Shown here: one piece after another, positions 3,180-26,742 of the stretch
Layout: each line of letters opens with the position of its first letter
Numbering within the stretch: position 1 is the first letter of the stretch
Source: Candidatus Bathyarchaeota archaeon
GTDB lineage: Archaea > Thermoproteota > Bathyarchaeia > Bathyarchaeales > Bathycorpusculaceae
DNA: 64,000 nt
Direction of reading: 5' to 3'
Assembly (NCBI GenBank): GCA_963770935.1
Contig: CAVYRJ010000001.1
Coordinates: 128,001-192,000 of the forward strand
Notes under the pieces: generated by a model
Databases searched by the model: none
What the model was told of the DNA's origin: nothing
What the model saw: the letters and a program-made list of their open reading frames with translations, nothing else
Position numbers and translations under genes: made by a program

Positions 3180-4631
3180 TTAGAAATTATTTTTGGTTTT
3201 TTGGAACAACTCAATTATGTATTGGTTGACGGTTTTCTGGTGGTCTTTCGCGATCCTTTGTATGGCGTTGTTTATTCCTGTTGAGTACTGCACAGCTTTC
3301 TTGGGTTTTTCTATGATGAAGTTTGGCAATCCGACATTGAAAGCGACTTTTCTCAACACAAGCTTACGGAGAGTGTTGGTTTTGTTTTCGATTTTTAGTT
3401 CAATAGGCAAACCAAGCGCAAACTCTGCCAAATCAAAAGAGCCAAAAGGCACCCGCAATTCGACATCATGAAAACTGGTAATTTTCAAGTCGCGTTCAAG
3501 GTTGCTCTCATGAATCCTGACTACATCGTTAAACATGGTTTTTCTTACTTTTTCGGTTCCATCTTTACAACATTCGTTCACGTAGCGCTGGTAGCCTCCA
3601 AACAACTCATCGGCGCCCTGACCAGCCAACATCACCTTGAAATCTGACTCAGCCGCTTTTTCTGCAACCCAATAAAATGATACACCGATGCTTGCCTTCA
3701 CTGGATCTGCTTCCTCGATTAACTCGACCACTTTAGGCAACGTTTTCTCGACGTCAGAGTCTTTAAATAAATCCACCTGCAAAGGCAAATTCAACGCTTC
3801 CGCGGCTTTGATGGCAACTTCGGTTTCCGCTTGATTCTCCAAACTCACGTGCAACAAGTTAACTTTGACGCCGCATTTGTTTATCAAAAAAGCTACCAAG
3901 CTACTGTCTAAGCCCCCCGAAAACGCTACGGCAACCTCCTTTAAGCCGTTTATCCTCCGCTGGATGGACTGTTCAAGAAGGGCTTGAAGCGTTTTGGCGG
4001 CGTCATCCATTTTTATTGGTTTAGGTTCTGTGTAAGTTAGTGTTTTGACAGGTTTGAACTTGAAGCCTTCTTTGTTGACAAGCGCCAAATTTCCCGGTGG
4101 AAAAGACAGGGGAGTTTCTATTCCGAGTTTCCAGAGGGCTTTTCTGTTTGTGGCAAAAGCTGCGATATCTCTGTTTTCGCCAAAATAGAGTGGTTGAACT
4201 CCTATTGGATCTCTTCCGGCTGCAATCCAGCCCTCCTTGAGCATTAGGATGGCATAGTCTCCATCTGCTTGCTCTATTAATGTCTGCAGGCTTGCCTCGC
4301 AGTAAAGTGGCGCTTTCGCAACCTGCTCCATGAATGCTGTTTTTGGAGTGGGCGAATAAACTCTACCCTCTAAGAGAACAGCGGCATCATCCAATTGCAA
4401 TTGTTCATAGTCGCTGTTCGATTTGGGTTTAGAGGTAACATAGCCTACTGCAGTTGACGATTTTACGCCCTGTTTTTTGATGATTTCAACGTTCTTTTCA
4501 AACAGGCTTTTCTTTGGGGTAATTAACCCAAAACGCGGCGGCGCGAAAACTTCAAACGAGTTTAACAAGTTAAGAACCCTTTCAACTGCGCTATCGCCGT
4601 TTTTATTTAAAACCGCAACTGTAACTTTCAT
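3180..4631 (-). CDS. asnB: Asparagine synthetase B-like protein (N-terminal Cys absent)
   Basis: RDPIGVQPLY, SGGLDSS, GQGADELFGGY, ELRVPF, KKAVQYSTG motifs. Confidence 0.85.
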   Translation of the reverse strand: MKVTVAVLNKNGDSAVERVLNLLNSFEVFAPPRFGLITPKKSLFEKNVEIIKKQGVKSSTAVGYVTSKPKSNSDYEQLQLDDAAVLLEGRVYSPTPKTAFMEQVAKAPLYCEASLQTLIEQADGDYAILMLKEGWIAAGRDPIGVQPLYFGENRDIAAFATNRKALWKLGIETPLSFPPGNLALVNKEGFKFKPVKTLTYTEPKPIKMDDAAKTLQALLEQSIQRRINGLKEVAVAFSGGLDSSLVAFLINKCGVKVNLLHVSLENQAETEVAIKAAEALNLPLQVDLFKDSDVEKTLPKVVELIEEADPVKASIGVSFYWVAEKAAESDFKVMLAGQGADELFGGYQRYVNECCKDGTEKVRKTMFNDVVRIHESNLERDLKITSFHDVELRVPFGSFDLAEFALGLPIELKIENKTNTLRKLVLRKVAFNVGLPNFIIEKPKKAVQYSTGINNAIQRIAKDHQKTVNQYIIELFQKTKNNF

Positions 4632-4725
4632 GCTTCAAACACCAAGATTCTATTTGCATTGTGTTAGTGCATTGGTAAAACATTAATCTTTAATCTGCGT
4701 AACAATTCGTTGAGGTTACACATAC

Positions 4726-6063
4726 TTGCCTATCCTTCCAATCGATACTGGCCGTTATGGAACGCCAGACATGCTTAAGATTTTTGAAGAAGAGACCCGC
4801 GTCCAGAAGCTGCTGGATGTTGAAGCGGCTTTGGCTTTGGCGCATGCTGAAGTCGGTAACATTTCACGAAAGGATGCTGAAAAAATCGCCGAGATGGCAT
4901 CCACCAAATATGTGAAAGTTGAACGCGTGAAAGCAATTGAGAAAGAGATTAAGCACGACATTGCCTCGCTGGTTCGAGCTCTCTCTGAGCAGTGTGGTAC
5001 CAGTGGTGCATATGTGCATCTTGGAGCGACAAGTTACGACATCGTAGACACAGCCAATGCCCTGCAACTTAAAGATGCCTTGGCCGTAATCGAGAGAAAA
5101 CTTAACGATTTCAAAGCCATCCTACAAAAACAAGCGTTCCTGCACAAAAGTACGGTTATGATTGGCAGAACCCATGGACAGCACGCTTTGCCAATTACGT
5201 TGGGCTTCAAATTCGCCGTTTGGGGATACGAAGTCAACAGACACCTTGAACGGATTGATGAATGCAAGAAACGGGTATTAGCGGGCAAAGTCAGCGGCGC
5301 CGTCGGCACACAAGCAGGTTTAGGAGATCACGCCGAGCAAATCCAGGAGCTTGTAATGACACGTTTGGGCTTGCAGGCTGCAGAGATATCCACGCAGATT
5401 GTCCAACGTGACCGCTACGCCGAATTGATTTCCATTTACGCAATGGTGGCTTCTTCGCTGGAGAACTTTGCAACCGAAATCCGCGAGCTTCAACGCCCCG
5501 AAATCGCCGAAGTCTTCGAATCCTTCGAAGCTAAAAAGCAGGTGGGAAGCTCTACGATGCCTCACAAGCAGAACCCTGAGACATGCGAGCGCGTCTGCGG
5601 TTTAGCAAGAATTGTCCGAAGTCTCAGCACACCAGCCATGGAGGATATGGTTACATGGCACGAACGCGACTTAACCCAGTCTTCAGCCGAACGCTTTATC
5701 CTGCCCGAATCAAACATACTGCTCGATTACCTGCTTAACCTCATGTGCAACATCGTGACCAACTTGAGGGTTGACAGCGAACGTATGCTAGCGAATCTAT
5801 CGATTACTCAGGGACGCGCAATGTCGGAAGCCGTCATGATGACACTGGCAAAGAAGGGCGTAAACAGGCAAGAAGCCCATGAACTTTTGCGGCAGCTAAC
5901 TATCCAAAGCGCAGTCGAGAAGAAACCGTTTAAGCATATTCTACAAGAAGACAAACTCATAAGCAAAACGCTAAGTGTAAAAGAAATCGACAAGGCTCTG
6001 GATCCAAAAAACTATTTGGGAACCGCGGTTAAACAGGCGGAAAAATTCGCTAAAAGCGCTTAG
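4726..6063 (+). CDS. purB: Adenylosuccinate lyase
   Basis: HLGATSYD, GRTHGQHA, GSSTMPHKQNP fumarate-lyase signature, HERDLT. Confidence 0.97.
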   Translation: MPILPIDTGRYGTPDMLKIFEEETRVQKLLDVEAALALAHAEVGNISRKDAEKIAEMASTKYVKVERVKAIEKEIKHDIASLVRALSEQCGTSGAYVHLGATSYDIVDTANALQLKDALAVIERKLNDFKAILQKQAFLHKSTVMIGRTHGQHALPITLGFKFAVWGYEVNRHLERIDECKKRVLAGKVSGAVGTQAGLGDHAEQIQELVMTRLGLQAAEISTQIVQRDRYAELISIYAMVASSLENFATEIRELQRPEIAEVFESFEAKKQVGSSTMPHKQNPETCERVCGLARIVRSLSTPAMEDMVTWHERDLTQSSAERFILPESNILLDYLLNLMCNIVTNLRVDSERMLANLSITQGRAMSEAVMMTLAKKGVNRQEAHELLRQLTIQSAVEKKPFKHILQEDKLISKTLSVKEIDKALDPKNYLGTAVKQAEKFAKSA

Positions 6064-8379
6064 AAATCAAACAAGCCCTTCTGCTCGGCTTCATCTGGCG
6101 CTTTTGCCAGGTTTTCCCATGTTTCCTTCTTGACAAAACCACCGACTTGCTCCTTGATTTTCTTCGCTAATCTCGGACCCACAGAAGGCAGATTGGTTAG
6201 GTCTTCGACTTGGGCGTGTTTAAGGTCTTCTATGGTTTTGTATCCGGCATTGAATATTATACGTCCTCGGACTCTGCCCACACCCTCCAGCGCCACTATG
6301 GGTAGCAGCTCACGTTTTATGCCTTTGGAAACCCTTTCCACAAGCTCATGGCACAGCGAGGAAACTTCCTTGTTTTTGGCGACGACAGGCGAGAGTTCGT
6401 CTATGGCGTGCAATAGCCACTTGGCAGTTTCGATGGTGCGGTAGAGATCTCCGGGTTGCACACTGAAGCGTTCTATGATTTTTTCTTCCGGCAACTCCTC
6501 TATCCAGTTGTTCATAACCATGCCGGTTTTGACCTCGCCTAGAAAATCTGCGTAGCCGATATGGTCGCTCCATTGATCGGGGATTTCTATGAAGAGTTCC
6601 TGTTTGTGGTCTTCAGTTTGCACTGCGAGCGCATCCATTTCCCGCTGGTATGGGCGCATGATTGGACCCATGTCGGGCGTGTGGGAAACCAGGTGGAGTA
6701 GGCTAAACTCGGTCAAGATAGGTGGGTTGATCTGTAGTGCGTCGCGAATTATTACGCCTGAGAGTGGGTCGATGTAGAGTTCGCTTATACGTTTGCCAAA
6801 TTTAGTGGGAAGGATGTGGTCTCCGGCAACAAGAATCATTTCTTCGTCGTGGAGAAAACGAAGGATTTTGTCGATGATGCTTTTAATTGCCTTTACGTCG
6901 AATTGATAGGCGTAGAAGGTTTTGCCGAAAAACTCATAGATGCCACGTTCCGTGTCAGCGTAACCTGAGGCAATCGTTGAAAGCACGTGTGTTCGGATGA
7001 TTCTCTCCACAGCTAGGCGGGACCAGATTTTCTCTGTTTTTGCCAAAACATAGTTTTCCATGAGGAAGTCGGCTTCGTCTGCGGTTTTAGCGATTAAGAC
7101 TGATTCGCCAAATTTGTCGTATTTTGGTCTGCCCGCCCGTCCAGCCATCTGCTTGTAATCCAAGACGCTAATAGGGTAGTTGCCCAATCCAGCTTCAAAG
7201 CGCCGATAGTCTTGGATTATGACTGTTCTTGCGGGAAGATTGACGCCCCAAGCTAAGGTGGGCGTAGCAGTTAAGACTTTGATTTTTCGTTCTTTAAAGG
7301 CATCTTCGACGACTTTGCGGTGTGCCCCTGAAAGTCCAGCGTGATGATAAGCCGTGGCACAGCGAACCAACTCGGAAAGCTCCTCGCTCATCCCAGTACG
7401 TTCGCCCGCGTCAAGGATTTTTTTTGCTTCTTCGTCAAGAACCTTCCTTATATACTCCTCGTGGGAGCGTTTAACCAATTTTGAGCCTGATTTCTGGTAA
7501 AGCGCCTTATCCATGTGGCTGGCGACGGTTTTAGCCGCGGAAACCGCGTTGCGCCGTGTGGAAGCAAAAATCAGGGCTTGTCCCCCGTTCTTAAGTGTGT
7601 CTAAAACCATATTTATGACGGTTAAGCGGGTTTCCTGCTCCACCTTCCTTGAGGAGCCATCCTTGTACTGCACTTCAGCTTGAAGCATGACGCCTTCTTT
7701 TAGGTTAATGGGGCGCCACTCGGTAACGATGTATTTGGCGTTAAGCCACCCTGCGATTTCATCCACGTTGTTTATGGTGGCGCTTAGAGCTAAGATTTGG
7801 ATGTGAGGGTTAACCTGCATCAGACGCGCCAACACAATCTCCAATGTTGGACCCCGCCCACCATCGTTTAAGAGGTGAACTTCGTCGGCAACCACCAATG
7901 AAATGTTATCCATCCATTTAGCACGGTGACGTAACAGTGAATCTGCTTTCTCGTTGGTGGTAACAATGATGTCATAACGTTCAAGCCAGTTGTCGGCGCT
8001 GTCAAAATCCCCAGTGCTGATACCCACAGAAACCCTTCCACCATCCAGGTTTCATGATGGAAGTGTACTTCTTGAAATCCTCAAACTTCTCACTTGCCAG
8101 GGCGCGGAGCGGAGAAAGGTAAATGACTTTGCCGCCCCTCTCGAGCACATGTTTGAGAGCACAGAGTTCAGCAATCAAGGTTTTACCCGAGGCGGTTGGG
8201 CTAGCAAGAACCATGTTTCTTCCCTCTAAGACTCCTGCTAGTACGCAATCTTCTTGCGGTGGAAACAACTCTGCAATTCCTAAGCTAAGCAGGACTTCTT
8301 TTACGGATTCTGGCACAACCAACTCTGCAATCTTCAAATTTTTCTCGCCAACACTAATTATTTTATCAATATTGAACAT
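6060..8379 (-). CDS. hel308: Ski2-like DNA helicase Hel308/Hjm, split by one extra base near 8045; probable TTG start at 8337
   Basis: PTASGKT in the 5' ORF; DEVH, LSAT, HHAGL, QMAGRAGRP and C-terminal HhH in the 3' ORF. Removing one base at cct-G-gat joins the frames. Confidence 0.93.
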
Positions 8380-8496
8380 GCTAATTAATAGTATTAGCTG
8401 TAAAGGAAACGATTTTCAGCTACGTTTTTCTATTTGAACTTGATATTAGCAAAGTAACGAGTTTATCTGTCCCAAAAATTTTAGGTAGGATACTGT

Positions 8497-9720
8497 ATGG
8501 TTGAAAACGTGAAAGAACTCCTCAAGCTGCATGAGGGCATTAGGCATGAAGTCTACTTAGACAATGAAAACAGCTGCATTGTTCCCAAAGAAGTGATAGA
8601 CGCAATGCTGCCGTACTTTAACAAGATCGCCTATGGCAACCCAACCCTTACGCATAAACCCGGCTGGGAAGCCTTCGAAGTCATAATGAACAGCTTCCAA
8701 AAAATCTCAAGGTACATAGGCGCAAAGAATCTTGAAGACATAACGTTTACCCCAAGCGAAACCGAAGCCAACAACCTAGCCATCATGGGCTCATGCTTCT
8801 CGCAGAAGGGCAAAGGCAAAAAAATTGTAATCTCAGAAATAGAACCTATCAATGTATTACAAGTGGCAGAGATGATGGAAAAATTCGGTTTTTCAACCAC
8901 CAAAATCCCAGTCAATAATGAAGGATTAATCAATCTAGAAAAACTCAAAGAAGCAGTCGATAACGAAACCGTGTTAGTCAGCATCTCAGCAGTAAATAAC
9001 GAACTGGGTACCATCCAACCCATTAAAGAAGCTGTAGACATCGTTAAATCCAAAACGCCCCAAGCACTCTTTCATACTGACGCATCTGACGCCTACGGTA
9101 GAATTCCATTTAACGTACAGGACCTGAATGTGGATTTGGCCACTGTAAGTAGCTATAAGATTCAGGGTCCACGCGGTATGGGGGCATTTTACCTCAGGGA
9201 TGGTGTAAACATGGAAAGAATCCTTGAAGGGCAAATCGGAACCCAAAAACTCTGGCCAGGCATCGAAAACACACCCTTAATCGTCGGCTTCACCAAAGCG
9301 TCCGAGCTGGCTTTTGAGAATTTTGAGGCAAACACTACCAAAATGAGAAACCTCCGAGACAAGTTGGTAGATGGAATATTCAATGAACTCGGTGACCTAA
9401 GATTCAACGGTCCAAAGGGCACCAAACGCTCTCCCGACAACGCTAACATAAGCATACTTCGAGCAGAAGGTGAAGCATTAACCATTGAACTCAGCCTCAA
9501 AGGTATATACGTTTCAAGTGGAAGCGCTTGTAGCAGAAGATTATTGCAGCCCAGCCACGTTCTCATCGCTATCGGACGCATATTTGAGGAAGCACATGGC
9601 AGTATACTTATGAAAGTAACCCGCAGCCACACAGAAGAGGATATAGCCTACGTTCTCAGTGTTTTACCTACAGCTGTCAACCGTATTAGGGGGATAGTTG
9701 GCTCAACAGGAGTTCATTAA
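8497..9720 (+). CDS. iscS: IscS/NifS-type (group I) cysteine desulfurase-like protein with divergent PLP site
   Basis: YLDN, NNELGTIQP, SSYKIQGPRG, SSGSACS Cys loop; directly upstream of iscU. Confidence 0.85.
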   Translation: MVENVKELLKLHEGIRHEVYLDNENSCIVPKEVIDAMLPYFNKIAYGNPTLTHKPGWEAFEVIMNSFQKISRYIGAKNLEDITFTPSETEANNLAIMGSCFSQKGKGKKIVISEIEPINVLQVAEMMEKFGFSTTKIPVNNEGLINLEKLKEAVDNETVLVSISAVNNELGTIQPIKEAVDIVKSKTPQALFHTDASDAYGRIPFNVQDLNVDLATVSSYKIQGPRGMGAFYLRDGVNMERILEGQIGTQKLWPGIENTPLIVGFTKASELAFENFEANTTKMRNLRDKLVDGIFNELGDLRFNGPKGTKRSPDNANISILRAEGEALTIELSLKGIYVSSGSACSRRLLQPSHVLIAIGRIFEEAHGSILMKVTRSHTEEDIAYVLSVLPTAVNRIRGIVGSTGVH

Positions 9721-9722
9721 GT

Positions 9723-10238
9723 ATGTCACGTATACCTTTACCCTACAATACAAAAGTTATGGATTTATTCCAACATCCAAAGAATCTTGGAAAAATGGAA
9801 GATGCGACAGTCGTAGCCGTCGCAGGAAATCCTGCATGCGGGGATATGATTACCTTCTACCTGAAAATCGACGAAGCAAAACAAGTCATCGAGAAAGCAA
9901 GTTTTGAAAGCTATGGCTGCGCAGCCAACATCGCTACCTCCAGCATTGTTACCGAAATGATAAAATGCTTGACACTCGAAAACGCATGGAACAACATAAC
10001 CTGGAAAAAAGTCACCGAAGAAATCGGCGGCTTACCAGCTGTCAAGTTCCACTGCGGAGTCCTCGCCGTCGGAGCCCTCAAACGCGCAATAAGACAATAC
10101 TTCATTCAGAAGAAAGTTGAAGCACCTATCTGGTTACCAAGTGAACACACTTTTGAGGAAAAGCAGGCGTTAGAGGAAGAGGAACTGGCAAAGACACTCT
10201 CTAAGAGGCTAAAACCTGAGGCAGAAAAACAATCATAG
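9723..10238 (+). CDS. iscU: Fe-S cluster scaffold IscU/NifU-N with charged C-terminal extension
   Basis: NPACGD, YGCAANIA, KFHC: three Cys plus Asp and His. Confidence 0.93.
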   Translation: MSRIPLPYNTKVMDLFQHPKNLGKMEDATVVAVAGNPACGDMITFYLKIDEAKQVIEKASFESYGCAANIATSSIVTEMIKCLTLENAWNNITWKKVTEEIGGLPAVKFHCGVLAVGALKRAIRQYFIQKKVEAPIWLPSEHTFEEKQALEEEELAKTLSKRLKPEAEKQS

Positions 10239-11472
10239 ATTCTCAAGCAATCAGGCAAGACTTCCCCATTTTACAAAGGCAAGTCAACGGCAACCCATTA
10301 ATCTACTTTGACAACGCGGCGACAACCCAGAAACCCCGCCAAGTCATCGACGCCATGATAGATTTCTACCTGAACCACAACGGAAACGTCCACCGAGCCG
10401 TCCACACCCTGTCTTTGGAGGCAACTGACCTCTACGAGAAGTCTCGGGAATCAATCGTAGAATTCATCAACGCCAAATCCGCATCTGAAGTAGTTTTTGT
10501 TAAGGGCACAACTGAAGCAATCAACTTGGTTGCTTATTCTTTGGGCTGCAGCAGTCTGGGTAGAGGCGACGAAGTTCTGGTTTCGCTTATGGAGCACCAC
10601 AGCAACATTGTGCCCTGGGAAATCATATCTAAATGCAGAGGCTTCTCAATCAAATACGCTAACGTCCACGACGACGGAACATTGGACTACGATGATTTTG
10701 AGAGCAAAATAAGCGGCAAAACCAGAATCGCCTGTCTAAGCCACGTTTCAAACGTCACAGGCGTCATCAACGACGTAAAACGAATCGCAAAGGCTGCGCA
10801 CGACAACGGCGCCTTGATGCTTGTGGATGGTGCCCAATCGGTGCCGCATATGAAGGTTGATGTTCAAGATTTAGGCATGGATTTCCTAGCTTTTTCAGGA
10901 CACAAAATGCTTGGACCAACAGGCATCGGAGTTCTATATGGAAAGAAGGACGTGCTGGAAAAGATGCCTCCGTTTATGGGCGGCGGCGAAATGATAAAAG
11001 AAGTTTCCTACAGTCAAACTCAGGGACAATGCAACGTCTCTTGGAATGAGTTGCCTTGGAAGTTTGAGGCGGGCACCCCAAACACTGGTGGAGCAATCGG
11101 ATTAGGCGCTGCAGTGAATTACCTTGAAGGTTTAGGCATGGATAACGTTTTGAGCCACGAGAAAGCTTTAACTGAATACGCGACCAAACGCATGAAGGAA
11201 TGCAGTAAAATTTCAATGTTATGGACCAACCAATCTTTCTCAATAAGCTTGGAATCATACCGTTTGGTGTTGACGGCTTATCGTCTCATGACGTCGCATT
11301 ATTCTTGGATAATTACGGTGTGATGATGCGTAGCGGTTTCCATTGTGCGCAACCCTTGCATGAGACGGTTCTTAAACTGCAATCTTCGGCGAGGGCAAGC
11401 TTTTACGTCTACAACACGGAAGAAGAAGTTGATCGCTTCATCGAAGTCCTGAAGGAGCTTGAGCAACTCTAA
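10235..11472 (+). CDS. sufS: SufS-type (group II) cysteine desulfurase; frameshifted near 11210-11245; homology starts at an ATA codon
   Basis: IRQDFPIL..LIYFDNAATTQKP lies upstream of the annotated ATG; EHHSN, DGAQS, FSGHKMLGPTG, EAGTP; RSGFHCAQPL in the second frame. Confidence 0.9.
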
Positions 11473-11742
11473 TGGCAACCATCGACGACTACGTGTCACG
11501 TGTCGAAGGAACCTGCGGAGCAGAAAAAGACGTCATTGTAGTATTCAAATACGAAAAAAAAGACGAAGCAATCGCCAATATCCTCAAAAAAGCCTACACT
11601 CAAGAACAAGATTGCCGGGATAATTTTTGAGTTAACTTTTAAAGACACATCTTTTAGGCTTTACTCAAGCGGCAAAGCGATTTTCCGCAGCATCAAAAGT
11701 AAACGTGAACTCACGGATTACTTGGCTAAACTTTTACTGTAG
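11472..11742 (+). CDS. Small (~89 aa) hypothetical protein with one Cys, split by one extra base near 11594; absent from the ORF track
   Basis: ATG overlaps the sufS stop (TAATG). Reads MATIDDYVSRVEGTCGAEKDVIVVFKYEKKDEAIANILKKA / TLKNKIAGIIFELTFKDTSFRLYSSGKAIFRSIKSKRELTDYLAKLLL*. Confidence 0.7.
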
Positions 11743-11850
11743 ATCACTTAAACAGAAAAAATTTGGAAGTGCCTATCGCTATTACCAACTCCAGAATGCT
11801 TAAATCATCTGGAGAGGAACAATTAACAATCCATTCAAGGATTAAGAGAA

Positions 11851-12594
11851 ATGCGTAAGCCCTTTGCAAGAACCTTAATAGTCGCCAAACAAAAAGGCAT
11901 TCGATCTGCACTAACCGTCAGCGCGGGCGAAATCAAGCGGCAGTTAAAATTATCTCGGAGCCTGTGGCGTTTCCGAATAATCAAGTCATGGAAGTCATTC
12001 ATATTCGACAACTGCAAATACCGATACTTCTATCATAAATACAACGTTACCTGGCAAAATGAGCGAACCGTAGAAGTTCCTATCGTTTGGGAAATCGTCA
12101 AGAAGCATCCTAACGCGCGGGTGCTTGAATTCGGAAATGTTCTACAACATTACCACAGGTTCCCCCATGACATCGTAGACAAATATGAGAAAGCCAAGGG
12201 AGTCATAAACAAAGATATAATCAATCTTGACCTTGAAAAAAAATACGATTTGATCATAAGCATTTCAACGTTGGAGCATGTGGGGTGGGATGAGAATCCC
12301 GATAGAAAGGACAAACTTAATGCTCCAGAGAAAACTCTGCAGGCTATAGGCAACTTAAAGCGGCACCTCAACTCTGGAGGCACTCTGGTTTTCACTTTTC
12401 CAGTCGGCGCCAACCCAAACCTTGACGCTCTAATGAAAAACCGCAGGGTAGGTTTCACTCAGATGTTCTATATGAAACGAATTTCAGCGGATAACCGTTG
12501 GAGACAAACAGATTGGGAGGACATCGAAAACAGCAAGTATGATGCGCCTTTTCCAGCCGCCAACGGCTTAGTCATCGGTATAATCAAAGTATAA
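11851..12594 (+). CDS. Class I SAM-dependent methyltransferase-like protein
   Basis: ERTVEVP, VLEFGN, YDLIISISTLEHVG, LNSGGTLVFTFP. Confidence 0.75.
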   Translation: MRKPFARTLIVAKQKGIRSALTVSAGEIKRQLKLSRSLWRFRIIKSWKSFIFDNCKYRYFYHKYNVTWQNERTVEVPIVWEIVKKHPNARVLEFGNVLQHYHRFPHDIVDKYEKAKGVINKDIINLDLEKKYDLIISISTLEHVGWDENPDRKDKLNAPEKTLQAIGNLKRHLNSGGTLVFTFPVGANPNLDALMKNRRVGFTQMFYMKRISADNRWRQTDWEDIENSKYDAPFPAANGLVIGIIKV

Positions 12595-12732
12595 CAAAGT
12601 CCACTGCAAATCCAGCTTATGTAGCTAAGCAAATGATGACTGCAAGTTTTGGGTTCATTATAATTATTTAACTTGGTGATACTAAACATTAAAAAATAGA
12701 GTAATACAGTCAATTCTTGATTTGAAGAGGGC

Positions 12733-13974
12733 TTGATTGATGTGAGAATCGCTATGCTGCATCCATCTCTAACCTGGAGAGGAGGCGCCGAAAGACAAAT
12801 CCTCATCTTGGCAACGGAACTGCAACGGAAAGGGCATCAAATAGAGATTTTCACATGTGCCCTCAACAACAGTTGCTTCCCTGAACTCGCAGACAAACTA
12901 AAAATAAACGTGGTAAAAACCCCATTCATCCAAGCAACCCCTAGCAGCACTCAAAAACGCACATTGAGCACTCGTCTAGCAGGTAGATTCCGAGGCTACA
13001 CCTCAGAACTGCCTTATATGATCTACATGGCTCAAAAAATCAGTAAGGACTTCGATTTGATCAACAATCACAATTCCCCAACAGAGTGGGCAGCATACTT
13101 CGCAAAAAGAAAACTCGACGCTCCCATCGTGTGGAACTGCAACGAGCCGCCCTTATGGTACTCTGATCCTAAACAGAGGCGGGGGCTGGGTAAAATCAAC
13201 CTACCGCTATATAGAGGATTCGACAAAATCGCAGTCAGCTACATCGACAACATAGTCGCCAATTCTGTTGCGGATAGCCAACGCATAGAGCGAGCTTATG
13301 GCAGAGCATCAATGATTGTTCGACCCGGCATCACCACCGACTTTTTCCATAGAGCTCAAGGCAAAAAGGCGCGCAGCCGATATGGATTGGAAAACAATTT
13401 TGTCCTCCTCCAAGTAGGCAACATCGCCCGAGACAAAGGGCAAAGTGACTCAATAACCGCCCTCCACTACCTCTCCAAAAATCACCGCAACGTCAAGTTG
13501 GTTTTGGTTGGTCAAGGCCCAAGAGACAAGCTGATTACGTTGAGCCGAAGATTGGGTGTAGAAGAAAAGGTTCTGTTTCTGCAGGATTGCTCTGATGAAG
13601 AGTTAGCTGACGTTTATGGCGCATGCGACGTGTTTGTTTTCCCTGCCCAGATAACGTGGGGGCTGGTTGTTATAGAGGCGATGGCAACGTCTAAACCAGT
13701 TGTTGTGTCAATAAAAGCTGGGGTTTCCGAAATCATCCAGAATGGCATGAATGGTTTTGTTTTCGATGAACCAAACGCTGCAAACATGGCTGCCTTGGTT
13801 GAAAAATTGATAGCTGACCCTGAGCTAAGCCGTAGAATAGGCGCTAACGCTTATGCGTATACCAAGGAAAACCTATCTTGGAAAAAATACGCTAAAAACA
13901 TGGAGAGGGTTTTCGAAAAAGCCGTAGACAGTTTTAAAAGCAATCGTAAAACGACGATTTATGTCGATCGCTAA
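12733..13974 (+). CDS. Glycosyltransferase family 4 (GT-B)
   Basis: HPSLTWRGGAER, DVFVFPA..TWGLVVIEAMA..KPVV. Confidence 0.92.
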   Translation: MIDVRIAMLHPSLTWRGGAERQILILATELQRKGHQIEIFTCALNNSCFPELADKLKINVVKTPFIQATPSSTQKRTLSTRLAGRFRGYTSELPYMIYMAQKISKDFDLINNHNSPTEWAAYFAKRKLDAPIVWNCNEPPLWYSDPKQRRGLGKINLPLYRGFDKIAVSYIDNIVANSVADSQRIERAYGRASMIVRPGITTDFFHRAQGKKARSRYGLENNFVLLQVGNIARDKGQSDSITALHYLSKNHRNVKLVLVGQGPRDKLITLSRRLGVEEKVLFLQDCSDEELADVYGACDVFVFPAQITWGLVVIEAMATSKPVVVSIKAGVSEIIQNGMNGFVFDEPNAANMAALVEKLIADPELSRRIGANAYAYTKENLSWKKYAKNMERVFEKAVDSFKSNRKTTIYVDR

Positions 13975-14906
13975 AGGTCACGGATTGAATCCAAAACTTC
14001 TTCCCTGACACGGTAACTTGTAAATGAAGTATCCGCAATCAAATCTCTCACAACTTTTGGATGCTCCTCTAACTTAACCATGCCTAAAGCGTCCGGGTAG
14101 TGAAAATTCAGTTCTTTTCTGCGTATCTCAGCCGCCGCCCTCCAGAAGGCGGAGGGGTCATCTAAATGGTTTTTTAGGAGTTGGATGTCTTCTCTGAGGT
14201 TTTCAAGCCCAAACATTTCTATGTGCTTCTGGCATTTTTCAAGGTAATCGATTGGAAACAGCGACCAGTACCTGTAGAGGGGTTTTGCAAGGTAGATAGC
14301 TTTAGAGTGGGGTGATGAGATAGTGTTGGCATACGTCCATTCTATGCCTTTGTTAATGTATTGTCGCAGTCGACGCGGATGGGTTAGGGCTTTGCGGCAT
14401 TCTTGGTTGGTGAACGATTCGCTTGGGCCAAGTGTCCATGCATCGCAGACGGCCACGACGACGCCGATGTTTTTGGAGAAACGCAGACGAAAATCTTCAT
14501 AGAACTTGTAATCCTTTACTATATGAACAAAGGGTAAGCTGAAAGTGTTAATCTCTGGACGCATTTCAGGCAAGGCTTTGATGAATTCAACGCTATCTTC
14601 ATGCACAACCTCATTTGCTTGAACAGAGAAAATATAGTCACCACTGCATTTAGCTCTTACAAGATTGGTTACTTCTGCTATGACACTGTATTTTTTTGCG
14701 CTGGGCCACTGTTGCCTGAAAACTTTTATTTTCGGGTTTAGTTTAGCGATTTTTTCTAACACTTCAAACGTGCCGTCGGTAGAGTACCCTTCAGAAATCA
14801 GAAACTCATCGCAAATCTGCAAACTGGCGGCTATTGATTCCACAAAGGGATAACCAGTTTTCAGCACGTTTTTTAGCACCATAAATCCCGAGATCAGTGC
14901 AACCAC
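13971..14906 (-). CDS. Glycosyltransferase family 2-like (GT-A)
   Basis: YPFVESI, EGYSTDGT, QANE at the DxD-equivalent position. Confidence 0.8.
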   Translation of the reverse strand: MVALISGFMVLKNVLKTGYPFVESIAASLQICDEFLISEGYSTDGTFEVLEKIAKLNPKIKVFRQQWPSAKKYSVIAEVTNLVRAKCSGDYIFSVQANEVVHEDSVEFIKALPEMRPEINTFSLPFVHIVKDYKFYEDFRLRFSKNIGVVVAVCDAWTLGPSESFTNQECRKALTHPRRLRQYINKGIEWTYANTISSPHSKAIYLAKPLYRYWSLFPIDYLEKCQKHIEMFGLENLREDIQLLKNHLDDPSAFWRAAAEIRRKELNFHYPDALGMVKLEEHPKVVRDLIADTSFTSYRVREEVLDSIRDL

Positions 14907-14983
14907 AGTAAAGAGGTTTCAAGTGGGTGCTTATTAATTTACTTACAAAACGCTTGCAAAGCAAACCCCAAAATCAATGACCT

Positions 14984-16141
14984 TTAAACTCTGGTTTGCG
15001 TCTGCATCAGTGTGGCTGTGTTACTCCAAATATTCTGCTCAAAGTTTGCAGGCTTCAAGACAGCTATCTTATCCTGCAACTCCTTTTTCTTAAAGTTCCA
15101 ACGCGCAAAAAAGGGCGGTTTTAGCAACTGAGCTATTTTTCCGCGTAAGTCGTCTATGGTAGTCCAGCGGAACTCGGGAGGGATGAATTCTCCGCTTCCC
15201 CCGCTGTTATGAACAAGCGTTACGCATCCGCTTGCCAGTGCTTCCATGGGGGCAATACCGAAGTGCTCGCCCTCCATAAGGTGGCAATAGACTGTTGAGT
15301 TCTGTAGTATCTTTATTTTTTCGGTTTCAGGCAGGTTGGGTTTTAAGGTGAAGTTTGGGGGCAAGTCTTTTGAGAATGCATCAAACCATGCCTGTTCAGT
15401 ATCCCTAAGCAAGCCAATGCTGACAAACTGCAGCTGCGGAAAATCGGTTGCCAGTTGCTTTAGGATTTCATGTCTTTTCTGAGGAATAAAACGTGCAGTG
15501 TAAACCACGCGGTTAAATCTGTTCTCTAAGGGTTCATCTGACCAGAAGGGCGCTTCTACCGGAGGATAAGCAACAACTGACTCTTTGACTCCGAGTTTGC
15601 TCCAGTACTTCTGCGTCATATCCTTAGTGTAGCTGCTATTGCAGAACAGCAATCCAAACTCGGTTATGTGCCCCTCCAGCAGCCTCTTATAGAGCCAAAG
15701 GTACACTCGTCTGCTCCGTTTGGAGTGTTCATAGTCATAGTGGATTTCTGGGAAATGTACGTAGGCAATATTGTGTTGGCGTGTCTTCAGAAGTGTGGTT
15801 TCGAATGCTGAGATCATTTGGGTGCTGAACATGTAGTCATATTTTGCGGTGGCTTTGTAGGTTTTCAGCAGCTTGATAATGTTTCTCCGGCGCTTGTACA
15901 CCGAGAACGGCGGGTCTGCCTCAACAATTTCACGGTTGCCCAGCATATGCAGCGTTACTTCGGCAGGCAGTTTTTCACCTATGATTTCTGCATAGCGGTT
16001 TTGATTAAAATCAAACGATAGCAGCTCTACCTGCTGGCCATGCGCAATGAGGGCTTTGATTATGTGGTGGCAGACGCGTTCGCCGCCGCCATAAATGTCA
16101 ACGTTAGGGTGTACTGTAAGGAATTTTGCCACTGACGCCAT
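14984..16141 (-). CDS. Glycosyltransferase family 4, ALG11-like
   Basis: HPNVDIYGGGERV, AYVHFP, NSSYT, YPPV, ARFIPQKRH, HLMEGEHFGIAPMEA. Confidence 0.88.
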   Translation of the reverse strand: MASVAKFLTVHPNVDIYGGGERVCHHIIKALIAHGQQVELLSFDFNQNRYAEIIGEKLPAEVTLHMLGNREIVEADPPFSVYKRRRNIIKLLKTYKATAKYDYMFSTQMISAFETTLLKTRQHNIAYVHFPEIHYDYEHSKRSRRVYLWLYKRLLEGHITEFGLLFCNSSYTKDMTQKYWSKLGVKESVVAYPPVEAPFWSDEPLENRFNRVVYTARFIPQKRHEILKQLATDFPQLQFVSIGLLRDTEQAWFDAFSKDLPPNFTLKPNLPETEKIKILQNSTVYCHLMEGEHFGIAPMEALASGCVTLVHNSGGSGEFIPPEFRWTTIDDLRGKIAQLLKPPFFARWNFKKKELQDKIAVLKPANFEQNIWSNTATLMQTQTRV

Positions 16142-23414: not shown

Positions 23415-23568
23415 CTCAATCTTTCCTCAGGTCAGTGTTGCGTAACATTCTACTTTGTGGGAGTTTATGAAGTTACCTGCAACGCTATCATAAATGCCTA
23501 ACGTAGCAAAAATATATACGGCTGATTGGAAAGTGAGTAGTGGATAGCGGTTTCGGTGACACAACGAT

Positions 23569-24963
23569 ATGACACCCATAGAAAAAAAGTTCAAAGTCGT
23601 TTTGGCTGACCCGCCTTTTGGTCGTGAATGTAAAGGGGAAGCCGTGACTGAGTCACCAAACCTTGGAATCCTCTACATCATAGGCTACGCAAGAGAACGT
23701 TTGCCGCAAGTGGAGTTCCATTATTTAGAACCCTTCATCTCCATGCAGGAACACCTCCAGAAAGTGAAGGAAATCAAGCCCGACGTTTACGCCTTGTCTT
23801 TCACCACACCCAGAAGAGACCTCTCCTTTGAAACAATAGTTCAAGGTAAAAGAGTTGGGTTTGAATATGCTTATGGCTGCGGGTGGTGCCCATCCAACTA
23901 TAGACCCTCAAGACGTCCTAAAGAACACCCCTATTGATGTATGCATCATCGGTGAGGGTGAAGAAACTACAACTGAATTAATCAGACAAGTCCAAGGCAA
24001 TAAATCCATCGCAGATGTTGTTGGAACAGTCAATAGGCAAAAAAACAACGGCATAAGACCACTATTAAAAGACATCGATTTCTTCCCAGCATGGGACATA
24101 ATAGACTTTGAAAACTATGACGTTGCGGTGAGTAGAAAGAAGCGTATGGCATATCTGCTTCCAATCCGCGGGTGCCCCAATTACTGCACTTACTGCTCAA
24201 ACCCTGTTTGGAAACTTGAAAAACCTTGGATACGTCAGCGTTCACCCAAGAACATAGCAGAAGAAATCCGCTACCTCTATGACAGAGGCATTAGAGAAAT
24301 CTATCTCCGCTCCGACACATTTAATGTCGATGTTAAGTGGTGTCTTGAAGTTTGCAATGAAATTGAAAAATTACACCTTAAAGGTATGACGTTTCAGTGT
24401 AATCTGCGGGCAGACAAATTAACCGATGAATTAGCCCAAAGATTTCATGACATGCACGTTTGGCTCGTCCACATCGGACTTGAATCCGCCAATGATCGTG
24501 TGCTCAGAGGAATAGGCAAAAACGCGACCCAAGCCGACAACGTCCGCACACTTGAGCTACTTAAAGAAGCACCACATCAAAGTCTACGGGTTCCTAATGC
24601 TCTACAACGCATGGGAAACAAAAGGCAAACTTGAATACGAAACTCCTGAAGAAGTAAACAACACTTTAGAGTTTGCAAAGACCTGTCTAAGAGACAACCT
24701 GATTGAATATATTTCGTGGTCCATTACTAACCCAATAATTGGCTCAAAACTCTTTGACATAGCTAAAAAGTTTGATATTGCGAGCCTACAACGTTAAAAT
24801 CGGCAATTGTATGCGTCTGCCAGGCATCAGCGAGCAACAAATGGTTGAGCATGTGAAACAAGGAATGATTCTGCAGCTCCTCAACGGCATCCAGAAGGGT
24901 ATGATAACCAAAAAAAGCTACAAGCGAGCTGCCCAGAAAGCGGTTAAAATCTTGAATATGTAA
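23569..24963 (+). CDS. B12-binding radical SAM protein, split by three apparent +1 insertions
   Basis: PNLGILYI, GGAHPT, GEGE, RGCPNYCTYC (CxxxCxxC), GLESAND across four consecutive ORF pieces. Confidence 0.87.
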
Positions 24964-25874: not shown

Positions 25875-26742
25875 TATTACGTTTTTTGGTCCTGCAAGCT
25901 GTTTCTCCAGTGCAATTGCCCTCACTCGCAACCTTTTCTGCTTCGGCTTTAACAGTTGCATTCTTTGATTTCTTCTTTACGTTTTTCGTTCGATTTCAAG
26001 ATTAATCTTAGCAAATCTGAGTCGTAGCTTTTCAGCAGTAGTTCCGTGTTCGGAATGAGGCAGTGTCCGCCGATAACTCCCGGAAACATAACTGGCCTGT
26101 CAAAACGCTCTTTATGTGTGTCCTCGATGAAGTCGACTGTTTCGTCGAAGTCTGCGTCGAAAGCCCGTGAGATTCGATGCATTTCCTGGAAACATGTAAT
26201 CATCCAAGCACGGTAGGTTGTTTCAAAGAGCTTAGCAAGTTCAGTTTCGACGGCAGCTTTTGAGAGATCTTAACTTTTAAGACCATAGCTTTTCAAAATG
26301 GTCCTTAGCTGCGTTGGATGCTGCTGTGTCTGCACCGCCAACGTACTTGGTCCAGCGCTTCATCTCCCAAATCATGTGTTCAGCGTTTATGTGGACGCCT
26401 CGCGCGGGGGAATGGGCAACAAGACAGCTGCAGTTTGCCGCGACTTTAAGCGTGGTTCCTGGTGGAACAGTGCTGTTGATGATGGCGAGTTTGGGCTTGT
26501 ATTGTTCCACATAGCCCTTAATTATGTCGACGAATTTTTCAGGGCTGCCGCATGGAAGACAAACCTGTAGGGTATCAACTTTGGCTGGAACCTGATCCTT
26601 GCTTTGGTCAAGCGACTCCATTTTCTTTTGGTCTAAGTCTAAACCATAAACGGTAAATTTCATCTTTAGCTTCACTGTACAAAGCGAAAAGAGTGTGTCC
26701 AATTTCGCCTAAACCAATAATTAGAACGATTTCCTTAGCCAA
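25875..26742 (-). CDS. UDP-glucose/GDP-mannose dehydrogenase family protein (short form), frameshifted; 3' end approximate
   Basis: TTG start at 26742, IIGLGEIG Rossmann motif, STVPPGTT, ELAKLFETTYR, PGVIGGHCL. Confidence 0.8.

What the first reader, a model, noticed from the sequence alone, without database searches (positions are those of the whole stretch)
8497..11742. Hybrid Fe-S/sulfur operon: degenerate IscS + IscU + SufS + small Cys protein
Seen: four genes abutting or overlapping (gap of 2 nt, overlaps of 4 and 1 nt) carrying both a group I and a group II desulfurase around one scaffold; no sufBCD or sufE in the window. Known: IscS normally pairs with IscU, and SufS with SufE or SufU. 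Inference: a division of labour in which SufS releases sulfur, the small protein relays it and the IscS-like protein partners the scaffold. I do not recognise this as a described system.
Basis: partly seen in the sequence, partly recalled or inferred. Interest (0 to 1): 0.72.

Follow-up and report, generated by a model that had tools for sequence, protein, structure and literature searches.

The report
Archaeal Fe-S operon with candidate sulfur relay
A conserved archaeal operon joins an apparently inactive IscS look-alike, the IscU scaffold, a normal SufS desulfurase and an unnamed 89-residue single-cysteine protein that may be the missing sulfur carrier for archaeal SufS.

Summary
SufS has no canonical start codon (ATA overlaps the IscU stop). 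SufS carries two single-base insertions and the small gene carries one. These insertions are absent from every relative and from environmental contigs. Because 21 of 233 orthologous ORFs genome-wide show such frame changes, they are most probably assembly errors.

The gene order is strongly conserved: 75 of 80 Bathyarchaeia loci have it, and the other 5 are cut by contig ends. Rearranged versions occur across other Thermoproteota families.

The IscS-like protein keeps the PLP lysine and the loop cysteine. It has conserved replacements at the catalytic His (Pro) and the substrate Arg (Leu), so it is probably not a desulfurase. SufS is canonical. The genome has no SufE, and its only NifU-type protein is the operon IscU.

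The small protein is a single TBP-domain protein with one invariant Cys in a hairpin loop. It is homologous, Cys included, to the C-terminal domain of ThiF/MoeB-type E1 enzymes (hhalign 98%).

The best reading is a SufS-fed, IscU-based assembly line with the small protein as persulfide relay. This is inferred, not shown. The complex prediction could not be run.

The parts
8497..9720 (+). IscS/NifS-like type I desulfurase homologue (407 aa). It keeps the PLP Lys (SSYK) and the loop Cys (SSGSAC). It lacks the catalytic His (EIEP) and the substrate Arg (GSILMK).
   Evidence: NifS model 361 bits against a cut-off of 530.75; IscS model 293 against 643; alignment to PDB 9wer_A; motif columns in 27 orthologues.
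9723..10238 (+). IscU scaffold, long form (171 aa). It has the Cys/Asp, Cys and His-Cys motifs and a roughly 40-aa C-terminal extension.
   Evidence: NifU_N E 1.2e-38; long 167-208-aa frames versus short 122-161-aa frames within the order; the only NifU_N match in the genome.
10235..11472 (+). SufS, a type II cysteine desulfurase. The likely start is ATA 10235, overlapping the IscU stop (ATAG). The frame is broken by two single-base insertions.
   Evidence: TIGR01979 472 + 88 bits in two pieces; invariant HH, SGHK, HCAQP in 29 sequences; aligned codon GTG 34, ATA 16, TTG 6 of 80.
11219..11241 (+). Stretch holding the two extra bases in SufS (about 11219 and 11241).
   Evidence: relatives read it in one frame; 'left out 1' at 11219 and 11241 in one X1 contig, depth 17.5.
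11472..11742 (+). Monopartite TBP-domain protein (89 aa in relatives) with an invariant Cys15 in the motif E-x-x-C-G. It is the candidate persulfide relay. The frame is broken by one extra base.
   Evidence: (Cys invariant in 60 of 60).
11595..11596 (+). Extra base in the small gene.
   Evidence: 'left out 1' at 11595 in 2 X2 contigs, and at 11596 in 1 X1 and 1 X3 contig; relatives read it in one frame.

Best explanation
This is one copy of a conserved archaeal sulfur-mobilisation and Fe-S assembly operon. SufS, a canonical type II PLP desulfurase, takes sulfur from cysteine as a persulfide. The 89-residue TBP-domain protein accepts it on its single invariant Cys, which sits in a flexible beta-hairpin loop. 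This would be the role SufE or SufU play for other SufS enzymes. The small protein then passes the sulfur to IscU. IscU is held by an IscS-like protein that no longer makes persulfide itself. As proposed for Archaeoglobus IscS, that protein would supply a docking platform and its loop Cys.

Shown here: the identity of the genes, the conservation of the linkage, the residue pattern, the homology of the small protein to a Cys-bearing C-terminal domain of ThiF/MoeB E1 enzymes, and the absence of SufE and of any second NifU-type protein from the genome.

Inferred: every transfer step, the inactivity of the IscS-like protein, and the contacts between the proteins.

The three frame breaks in this window are most probably assembly errors, so the organism probably has all four genes intact.
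For: Linkage:
- The full order holds in 18 of 20 loci and in 75 of 80 loci, the other 5 being cut by contig ends.
- In 19 loci from other families of the phylum, 14 have the small gene directly beside IscU or SufS, in five different arrangements. One more has SufS 1.4 kb away.
- All 5 of 5 genomes with IscS-like-IscU-small but no adjacent SufS have a SufS elsewhere.
- Within the order, families f11 (0 of 8) and f6 (0 of 4) lack both the small protein and SufS. They mostly carry a short IscU instead.

IscS-like protein:
- Lys and the loop Cys are kept in 27 of 27 sequences. The catalytic His is Pro in 24 of 27. The Arg position is Leu in 27 of 27. Other PLP-site motifs are replaced by equally conserved new motifs.
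- His and Arg are among the four strictly conserved desulfurase residues (PMC8918507, section 5 passages).

SufS: HH, SGHK, HCAQP and Arg are invariant in 29 sequences.

There is no SufE, and the operon IscU is the only NifU_N protein in the genome.

Small protein:
- The AF2 model has pLDDT 90.9, with the Cys in the lower-confidence 11-20 loop.
- Cys is invariant in 60 of 60 diverse members.
- hhalign against the E1 C-terminal domain gives probability 98%, E 2e-13, with Cys-Gly aligned on the E1 motif WLCG.
- Cys is present in 20 of 20 E1 domains.
- The modelled E1 domain has the same beta-beta-alpha-beta4-alpha topology.

Parallel case: in the same order, the Lys-less IscS (SSND, 8 of 8) with short IscU lies beside TusA and/or DsrE carriers in 4 of 4 loci scanned.

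Frame breaks as artefacts:
- 21 of 233 orthologous ORFs show frame changes, spread over six contigs.
- SufS pieces are in different frames in 7 of 80 relatives' records too.
- SufS shows no excess divergence: ratio 1.89 against 1.86 +/- 0.45 in 66 other pairs.
Against: - No interaction or transfer was tested; the complex job never ran.
- The fold shows no likeness to SufE, SufU, TusA or rhodanese. The best PDB matches are TBP and generic alpha+beta folds (Foldseek E 0.05; VIA Z 6.0 or less). The carrier role therefore rests on context, one Cys and analogy.
- The family is a true TBP-repeat homologue (profile against M. jannaschii TBP, E 2.6e-8) and is mildly basic (median pI 8.9). A DNA-binding role is not excluded.
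- 4 of 19 distant loci (L143, L144, L145, L147) and a paralogue (L047) have no IscS-like, IscU or SufS nearby.
- The IscS-like protein keeps Lys, Asp and the loop Cys, and three orthologues keep His and SSHK. Some PLP chemistry cannot be ruled out.
- IscU lies directly before SufS and could itself accept sulfur from SufS, as SufU does.
- The environmental contigs that lack the extra bases are only 96-99% identical to the window, so they are not the same strain. The frame breaks could be real.
Confidence: 0.5

Rival explanations
1. The small protein is a transcriptional regulator of the operon. As a single TBP domain it would dimerise and bind DNA, with the Cys sensing persulfide, redox state or a cluster, much as IscR and SufR do in bacteria.
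For: It is a true TBP-repeat homologue and weakly matches the DUF3378/RNase HIII duplex-binding domain. Median pI is 8.9. It is the last gene of the operon. Some members lie away from Fe-S genes.
Against: The same domain, with the same Cys, is fused to the C-terminus of ThiF/MoeB adenylyltransferases, where a DNA-binding role makes little sense. A single invariant Cys in an exposed hairpin is typical of carriers. No DNA-binding test was done.
Confidence: 0.12
2. The small protein is an accessory factor that carries no sulfur. It could be an adaptor or activator bridging SufS to the IscS-like-IscU complex, a cluster ligand, or a link to a downstream carrier. SufS would hand sulfur directly to IscU, as with SufU or NifU.
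For: IscU and SufS are translationally coupled (ATAG overlap). IscU is the only NifU-type protein. The long IscU has a conserved C-terminal extension that could be a docking site. MinD/ParA-type ATPase genes recur near the small gene and after SufC-SufB.
Against: IscU here is of the IscU type (His-Cys; SufU model 59 bits against a cut-off of 92.5). According to the 2026 review, type II SufS enzymes depend largely on a dedicated acceptor (PMC13066941, passages). The invariance of the one Cys would need another explanation.
Confidence: 0.15
3. Two systems share an operon. The IscS-like-IscU pair builds clusters from free sulfide, as proposed for A. fulgidus. SufS plus the small protein feeds other thio-cofactor routes instead, such as E1/ubiquitin-like thiocarboxylates, tRNA thiolation or molybdopterin.
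For: The small-protein domain is fused to ThiF/MoeB E1 enzymes. Two such E1 genes lie 1-4 kb from the operon in G278. SufS-small pairs occur without IscS-like-IscU in the locus (L138, L142, L146, L148). Sulfide use is proposed for inactive IscS (PMC8918507, section 10).
Against: The small gene directly follows IscU, with SufS elsewhere or on the other strand, in L044, L130, L132, L133, L137, L140 and L141. It therefore tracks the scaffold as much as it tracks SufS. The long IscU, the IscS-like variant, SufS and the small protein co-occur by family within the order.
Confidence: 0.15
4. In this particular organism SufS and the small gene are real, recently inactivated pseudogenes, so the operon is decaying here.
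For: There are three insertions within 377 nt. The contigs lacking them come from 96-99% identical relatives, not demonstrably the same strain. No run held more than 0.44 of the sampled words.
Against: Of 233 orthologous ORFs, 21 (9%) carry frame changes on six contigs, several with 2-3 changes, including a Hel308-type helicase next door. SufS shows no excess amino-acid divergence. Similar breaks occur in 7 of 80 relatives' records.
Confidence: 0.12

Closest known systems
Archaeoglobus fulgidus IscS-IscU, the 'inactive cysteine desulfurase paralogue' (PDB 4EB5, 4EB7, 4HVK, 4R5F); MIS system (MisS-MisU)
   Same: A type I desulfurase homologue with a damaged active site but an intact loop Cys, encoded next to IscU. 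4eb5_A and 4r5f_A are among the best PDB sequence matches (E 2.5e-78 and 3.6e-79). The proposed role is scaffold partner and Cys ligand (PMC8918507, section 10).
   Different: A. fulgidus IscS has Asp in place of the PLP Lys. The window protein keeps Lys and instead lacks the catalytic His and the substrate Arg. The Lys-less type does exist in the same order, but in a separate TusA/DsrE cassette with a short IscU; it is 40% identical on average to the window type. The review describes MIS as two components only (PMC13066941, passages). Here SufS and a fourth protein are joined to it.
SufS-SufE and SufS-SufU two-component desulfurase/transpersulfurase pairs
   Same: A type II SufS encoded beside a small single-Cys protein. 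The Cys lies on a loop. SufS would need an acceptor, and this genome has no SufE.
   Different: The small protein matches neither SufE nor SufU by Pfam/NCBIfam. SufE, SufU, TusA and rhodanese are not among its fold matches. It is a TBP-domain protein. SufBCD is not in the operon; the scaffold here is IscU.
Monopartite TBP-domain proteins of Thermococcales and ThiF/MoeZ/MoeB-TBP fusions (Brindefalk et al. 2013, PMC3597702)
   Same: Stand-alone proteins of about 90-97 aa made of one TBP domain, function unknown. MoeB homologues with a C-terminal TBP domain are noted as having 'a lack of experimental information'.
   Different: That paper (abstract, section 24, passages of section 25) mentions no cysteine (the word occurs 0 times), no link to desulfurases or IscU, and no Bathyarchaeia. 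I could not test whether the Thermococcales proteins belong to this family.
TusA-DsrE-IscS(Lys-less)-IscU cassette of anaerobic archaea and bacteria
   Same: An impaired IscS plus IscU joined to small persulfide carriers. It is present in relatives within the same order.
   Different: The carriers differ (TusA and DsrE versus SufS plus a TBP-domain protein). So do the IscS subfamily and the IscU length. The window genome has only the SufS-linked version and one TusA elsewhere.
Uba4/MOCS3: E1 adenylyltransferase with a C-terminal rhodanese domain bearing the persulfide Cys (recalled; only search listings of PMC2651780 and PMC12954526 were seen)
   Same: An E1-like ThiF/MoeB enzyme carrying a C-terminal domain with one essential Cys. 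Free-standing versions of the carrier domain exist.
   Different: Here the domain is a TBP fold, not rhodanese, and its chemistry is untested.

Membership tests
Active type I cysteine desulfurase (IscS/NifS) | PLP-binding Lys (Schiff base) | tested here: met
   SSYK aligns with the T/S-A-H-K motif of PDB 9wer_A. Lys is present in 27 of 27 orthologues.
Active type I cysteine desulfurase (IscS/NifS) | Conserved acid-base His | tested here: not met
   EIEP aligns with EIEH. Pro is present in 24 of 27 orthologues and His in 3 of 27. The role of this His is taken from PMC8918507, section 5 passages.
Active type I cysteine desulfurase (IscS/NifS) | Conserved Arg binding the substrate carboxylate | tested here: not met
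   GSILMK aligns with GSVRFS. The Arg position is Leu in 27 of 27. The equivalence to E. coli Arg354 is recalled.
Active type I cysteine desulfurase (IscS/NifS) | Catalytic loop Cys | tested here: met
   SSGSAC is present in 27 of 27.
Active type I cysteine desulfurase (IscS/NifS) | Score over the NCBIfam equivalog cut-off | tested here: not met
   NifS 361.4 bits against 530.75; IscS 293.2 against 643.2.
A. fulgidus-type Lys-less IscS | Asp (or another non-Lys residue) at the PLP-Lys position | tested here: not met
   The window keeps Lys. The SSND form is found in 8 of 8 'short IscU' loci of relatives, not here.
IscU scaffold | NifU_N domain with three Cys, Asp and His-Cys | tested here: met
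   PF01592 scores 132.5 bits against a cut-off of 22. The motifs ACGD, GCAA and FHCG can be read. The NCBIfam IscU equivalog scores 100 against 192, which is not met.
SufS (type II desulfurase) | TIGR01979 score over the cut-off; HH, SGHK and HCAQP motifs | tested here: inconclusive
   The window scores 472.3 and 87.8 bits in two pieces against a cut-off of 475.1, because of the frame breaks. Intact orthologues score 565-598 bits. The motifs are invariant in 29 sequences.
SufE / SufU / TusA sulfur acceptors | Sequence or fold membership of the small protein | tested here: inconclusive
   No Pfam or NCBIfam match. None of these folds appears among the Foldseek or VIA matches, which does not exclude a distant likeness.
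TBP-domain superfamily (monopartite TBP-domain protein) | Homology to one TBP repeat; beta-alpha-beta4-alpha fold | tested here: met
   The profile A2 matches M. jannaschii TBP 2z8u_A at E 2.6e-8. The AF2 topology fits. Foldseek's best match is TBP 1ais_A (E 0.05, probability 0.91). The Pfam TBP model stays below its cut-off.
Persulfide carrier (functional class) | Cys persulfide formed by a desulfurase and passed on | not testable with these tools
   Only an invariant, loop-exposed Cys was seen.

The most novel reading that the evidence does not exclude
The 89-residue protein defines a third class of desulfurase partner, after SufE and SufU: a TBP-fold persulfide-relay module. It would work stand-alone between SufS and an IscU scaffold held by a catalytically silent IscS. 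Fused to ThiF/MoeB E1 enzymes, it would play the part that the rhodanese domain plays in Uba4/MOCS3. This would explain how archaeal SufS enzymes work without SufE or SufU, and where at least one kind of inactive IscS-IscU pair gets its sulfur.
Probability: 0.4. Interest if true: 0.82.

Novelty: new variant of a known kind. Interest (0 to 1): 0.66.

Why it matters
Two gaps are stated in recent papers. The SufS partner SufE/SufU is missing from most archaea (PMC12442378, introduction passage). It is also unclear how IscS-IscU pairs with an inactive IscS obtain sulfur (PMC8918507, section 10). The 2026 review lists only SufE and SufU as SufS acceptors and describes MIS as a bare two-protein system (PMC13066941, passages).

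This operon puts a candidate answer to both questions into four adjacent genes, conserved in many Bathyarchaeia and other Thermoproteota. It also gives a function to test for two orphan groups noted in 2013: monopartite TBP-domain proteins and MoeB-TBP fusions. All four proteins are small, soluble-looking and suited to standard desulfurase and cluster-reconstitution assays.

Tried and rejected
The job was not sent on. One search gave no usable answer. There is therefore no result either way.
- A programmed frameshift was rejected. The three extra bases are absent from all relatives and from environmental contigs.
- A tree of the two IscS subfamilies failed because the tree programs were not available. 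I used identities instead: 40% on average between the groups, 66-67% within them.
I used A1, which reaches only close relatives.
- A search from the distant member P0133, meant to reach Thermococcales, found only 3 proteins. Two cluster look-ups gave names only for Methanomethylicota, Njordarchaeia and Korarchaeota members.
- The ESM Atlas gave only unnamed Bathyarchaeota clusters, plus one TBP-labelled Thermoplasmatota cluster.
- Our own earlier notes had nothing for this genome or for this sequence.
- A first comparison of ORF lengths against relatives' loci was not decisive, because those loci are biased towards long genes. One search replaced it.
- Garcia et al. 2022, the paper that defines MIS and SMS, is not in the library. 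I know it only through the reviews that cite it, and its supplements may list such gene clusters.
Full report
**What is in the window**

On the + strand, one search lists a 407-aa ORF at 8497-9720 and a 171-aa ORF at 9723-10238. Pfam and NCBIfam name them a class V aminotransferase closest to NifS/IscS and an IscU-type NifU_N protein.

A SufS-type gene follows. Its conserved N-terminus (..IRQDFPIL..) begins right after the IscU stop. The frame holds no ATG, GTG or TTG before 10355. The only way to include the N-terminus is a start at ATA 10235, which overlaps the IscU stop as ATAG. At the aligned position, 80 related loci have GTG in 34, ATA in 16 and TTG in 6, with a scatter of other codons in the rest from alignment offsets. 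ATA therefore looks like a tolerated near-cognate start, perhaps reached by re-initiation.

The SufS stop and the start of the fourth gene overlap by one base (TAATG).

SufS is covered by the family model in two pieces, positions 2-324 and 327-400. Comparison with relatives shows that the window needs three frames to read what they read in one..KECSKVTIYGPSNLSEKLGIIPF... That means two extra bases.

The fourth gene reads 11472-11630 in one frame and 11542-11742 in another. Relatives have one 89-aa ORF.

I laid contigs of four public runs on 7800-11900. They lack one base at 11219 and 11241 (one X1 contig), at 11595 (two X2 contigs) or 11596 (one X1 and one X3 contig), and at 8044 (X1) or 8047 (X3) in the upstream helicase gene, which is also split. 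These contigs are 96-99% identical to the window, so they come from relatives and not necessarily from the same strain. The best run holds 0.44 of the sampled words.

To see whether this is local decay or a property of the assembly, I took 268 ORFs of 200 aa or more from 400 kb of a close relative (G002). Of these, 233 had an orthologue in this genome at 60% identity or more and 70% coverage or more. Of the 233, 21 (9%) change frame, with 29 changes spread over six contigs. The window's SufS is no more diverged, relative to the IscS-like gene, than is usual in the genus: ratio 1.89 against 1.86 +/- 0.45 in 66 other pairs. SufS is split in 7 of 80 relatives' records too. I therefore read the three breaks as assembly errors (about 0.85), with real recent inactivation as the alternative.

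**Conservation**

The first 52 residues of the small protein found a match in 29 of 41 genomes, this one included, and in 22 of 24 other genomes of the genus.

In 20 fetched loci the full order IscS-like, IscU, SufS, small gene is present in 18. One has IscS-like-IscU-small without SufS (L044). One is a lone paralogue (L047).

In 80 loci from a one-genome-per-species collection, 75 have the full order on one strand and the other 5 are cut by a contig end. Nearly all of these records are titled Bathyarchaeota or Bathyarchaeia MAGs. These 80 are the best of 281 matches and are close kin, so they are not independent.

Further out, I examined 19 loci from other families of the phylum.
- 15 hold SufS and/or IscS-like-IscU.
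- In 14 the small gene directly adjoins IscU or SufS.
- The arrangements vary: the window's order; SufS first; IscS-like-IscU divergent from SufS-small; IscS-like-IscU-small with SufS convergent or absent; and SufS-small alone.
- 4 loci show none of these genes.

Five of five genomes of the 'no adjacent SufS' kind have a SufS elsewhere.

In a draw of 401 genomes of the phylum, 100 match the small-protein profile (some only through the E1 domain described below) and 298 have SufS. Within the window's order, families f11 (0 of 8) and f6 (0 of 4) lack both the small protein and SufS. Several of their genomes carry a short IscU instead.

**The IscS-like protein**

Aligned to a canonical desulfurase of known structure (9wer_A, E 5e-84), the protein keeps the Schiff-base Lys (SSYK for S/T-A-H-K), the Asp before it, and the loop Cys (SSGSAC). 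It has EIEP for EIEH, DASD for DAAQ, EGQIGTQKLWPGIEN for EGGTQERGVRAGTEN, DNENS for DHAAT, and GSILMK for GSVRFS.

Across 27 orthologues these replacements are themselves conserved:
- Pro at the His position in 24 (three keep His and SSHK);
- Leu at the Arg position in 27;
- Lys and Cys kept in 27.

The review PMC8918507 (section 5 passages) names Lys, Arg, His and Cys as the strictly conserved active-site residues. His is the acid-base catalyst and Arg binds the substrate carboxylate. Two of the four are missing here. The family models score far below their cut-offs. I conclude that the protein is probably not a desulfurase but is under selection for another role. This remains an inference.

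The known precedent is A. fulgidus IscS. It has Asp for Lys and no activity, and it is proposed to give a Cys ligand to the cluster on IscU (PMC8918507, section 10, read whole). Its structures are among the best PDB matches.

The Lys-less type also exists in this order, but as a different subfamily: SSND in 8 of 8, and 40% identical on average to the window type against 66-67% within each group. It sits beside a short IscU, with TusA and/or DsrE in 4 of 4 loci scanned. The window type instead goes with a long IscU carrying a roughly 40-aa C-terminal extension.

**SufS and the missing partner**

SufS has all its hallmarks. HH, SGHK, HCAQP and two Arg are invariant in 29 sequences. Intact orthologues score 565-598 bits against a cut-off of 475.

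The genome is 91% complete. It has no SufE match, and the operon IscU is its only NifU_N protein. One TusA lies elsewhere. SufC-SufB/D sit on another contig, followed by a MinD/ParA-type ATPase.

According to the 2026 review, type II enzymes depend largely on a dedicated acceptor, and only SufE and SufU have been described (PMC13066941, passages). A 2025 paper states that this partner is missing in most archaea (PMC12442378, passage).

**The small protein**

- It has 2827 relatives in the 90%-identity clusters, most unnamed and some mislabelled 'ribonuclease HIII'. It has only 92 representatives at the 50% level.
- Named members come from Bathyarchaeia, Methanomethylicota, Njordarchaeia and Korarchaeota.
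- No Pfam or NCBIfam family reaches its cut-off.
- The AF2 model is confident (pLDDT 90.9) and has the topology beta-beta-alpha-beta4-alpha. The Cys lies in the less confident 11-20 hairpin loop.
- Fold searches give only TBP and generic alpha+beta matches: Foldseek E 0.05 and VIA Z 6.0 or less.
- The family profile matches archaeal TBP repeats at E 2.6e-8, so it is a true single TBP-domain protein.
- One Cys (E-x-x-C-G) is invariant in 60 of 60 diverse members, and 40 of the 60 have no other Cys.

**A link to E1 enzymes**

The profile also hit the last roughly 60 residues of 345-390-aa ORFs in many genomes, including this one at C4:16284-17319. These are ThiF/MoeB-type adenylyltransferases. 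Pfam ThiF covers residues 14-248 only. NCBIfam NF009123, 'MoeB/ThiF family adenylyltransferase', spans the whole length.

Their C-terminal 96 residues carry an invariant Cys in W-L-C-G (20 of 20; Gly in 19). A profile-profile comparison with the small-protein family gives probability 98%, E 2e-13 over 76 columns, with the two Cys-Gly motifs aligned. The modelled E1 shows the same beta-beta-alpha-beta4-alpha domain, with the Cys in the first hairpin. In one genome, two such E1 genes lie 1-4 kb from the operon.

Brindefalk et al. 2013 (PMC3597702; abstract, section 24 and passages of section 25 read) already noted monopartite TBP-domain proteins in Thermococcales and MoeB-TBP fusions. They assigned no function to either and do not mention a cysteine.

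By analogy with the rhodanese domain of Uba4/MOCS3 (recalled), a Cys-bearing domain fused to a sulfur-carrier-activating E1 points to a persulfide-relay role.

**Mechanism proposed, and its standing**

The proposed path is cysteine to SufS persulfide, to Cys15 of the small protein, to IscU held by the silent IscS-like protein. I put about 0.5 on this chain as a whole, about 0.85 on the four genes forming one sulfur/Fe-S functional unit, and about 0.45 on the small protein being a persulfide carrier.

The rivals are these:
- a TBP-domain regulator;
- a non-carrier accessory factor, with SufS feeding IscU directly;
- two independent systems sharing an operon;
- real pseudogenes in this strain.

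None is excluded. The family is mildly basic. Four distant loci lack any Fe-S context. No binding was tested, because the complex job never ran.

**Is it described?**

My searches found no paper on such an operon or on a function for the small protein.
- (IscS, IscU, SufS, archaea, Bathyarchaeota): 90 papers hold 4 of the 5 terms and 15 were listed.
- MIS and SMS literature.
- none of the 12 listed papers holds 'TBP-like' together with the desulfurase terms.
- only 2 papers use 'monopartite TBP' or 'TBP-domain protein'.
- 'TK1991' does not occur in any listed paper.

Garcia et al. 2022 was not available to me. Its text and supplements may bear on this.

Earlier notes of this scan describe Lys-less IscS-IscU cassettes with TusA/DsrE, and one Asgard operon with an unnamed 84-residue single-Cys protein. 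These are leads, not support. I confirmed only that the TusA/DsrE cassette occurs in relatives of this genome.

**Verdict**

The finding is a real and conserved feature, not an artefact, although this copy is marred by probable assembly errors. It is a new variant of known Fe-S machinery. Its most interesting part is an uncharacterised, testable candidate for a new kind of sulfur-transfer protein.

Noticed in passing
window 6060-8379 (- strand): A Hel308/Ski2-type archaeal helicase (DEAD, Helicase_C and archaeal helicase domain 4) is split into 125-aa and 655-aa ORFs by one extra base near 8044. Relatives and environmental contigs lack that base.
   Followed up: partly
whole genome G000, e.g. 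window about 23566-24960, 26296-26659 and 37113-37570 (C1:151566-152960, 154296-154659, 165113-165570): 21 of 233 orthologous ORFs change frame relative to a close relative, several of them 2-3 times. The assembly appears to carry many single-base indels, so any 'pseudogene' seen in this genome needs checking.
   Followed up: partly
window 10232-10238: The SufS start appears to be ATA overlapping the IscU stop (ATAG). The aligned codon is ATA in 16, GTG in 34 and TTG in 6 of 80 related loci. It is a possible near-cognate start used by re-initiation.
   Followed up: partly
G000 contig C4:16284-17319 (L129:2285-3319): A ThiF/MoeB-type E1 whose C-terminal 96 residues are homologous to the small protein, including an invariant Cys (WLCG). 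Two paralogues lie 1-4 kb from the operon in G278 (L131:1872-2873 and 3954-4943).
   Followed up: partly
G000 contig C7 (L008:351-3158); L043:5014-5805; L045; L144:3947-4726; L047:7193-7957: A MinD/ParA-type P-loop ATPase follows SufC-SufB/D in this genome. Its orthologue lies convergent to the small gene in two other genomes, and similar ATPases (with a weak NUBPL/ParA match) sit near distant small-family members. It may be an Fe-S carrier link.
   Followed up: no
G163:C16:24315-25499; G143:C25; G089:C8; G011 (L032): Some SufS genes sit in open frames of 500-573 aa, and in G011 SufS and the small gene share one 499-aa open frame. These may be fusions or assembly errors.
   Followed up: no
protein P0143 (113 aa): One cluster representative reads as the C-terminal part of a long IscU joined to the small protein, with an internal piece of IscU missing. 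It could be a fusion, a miscalled gene or a chimera.
   Followed up: no
window 11851-16141: Downstream lie a 247-aa ORF and a 311-aa ORF with no Pfam family, plus two group 1 glycosyltransferases. Relatives do not share this neighbourhood: the 247-aa ORF matched none of the 20 loci.
   Followed up: no
L143:4110-5607 (G341): A distant member of the small-protein family lies close to a thioredoxin gene and an AhpC/peroxiredoxin gene rather than Fe-S genes. This hints at a broader thiol or redox role for the family.
   Followed up: no
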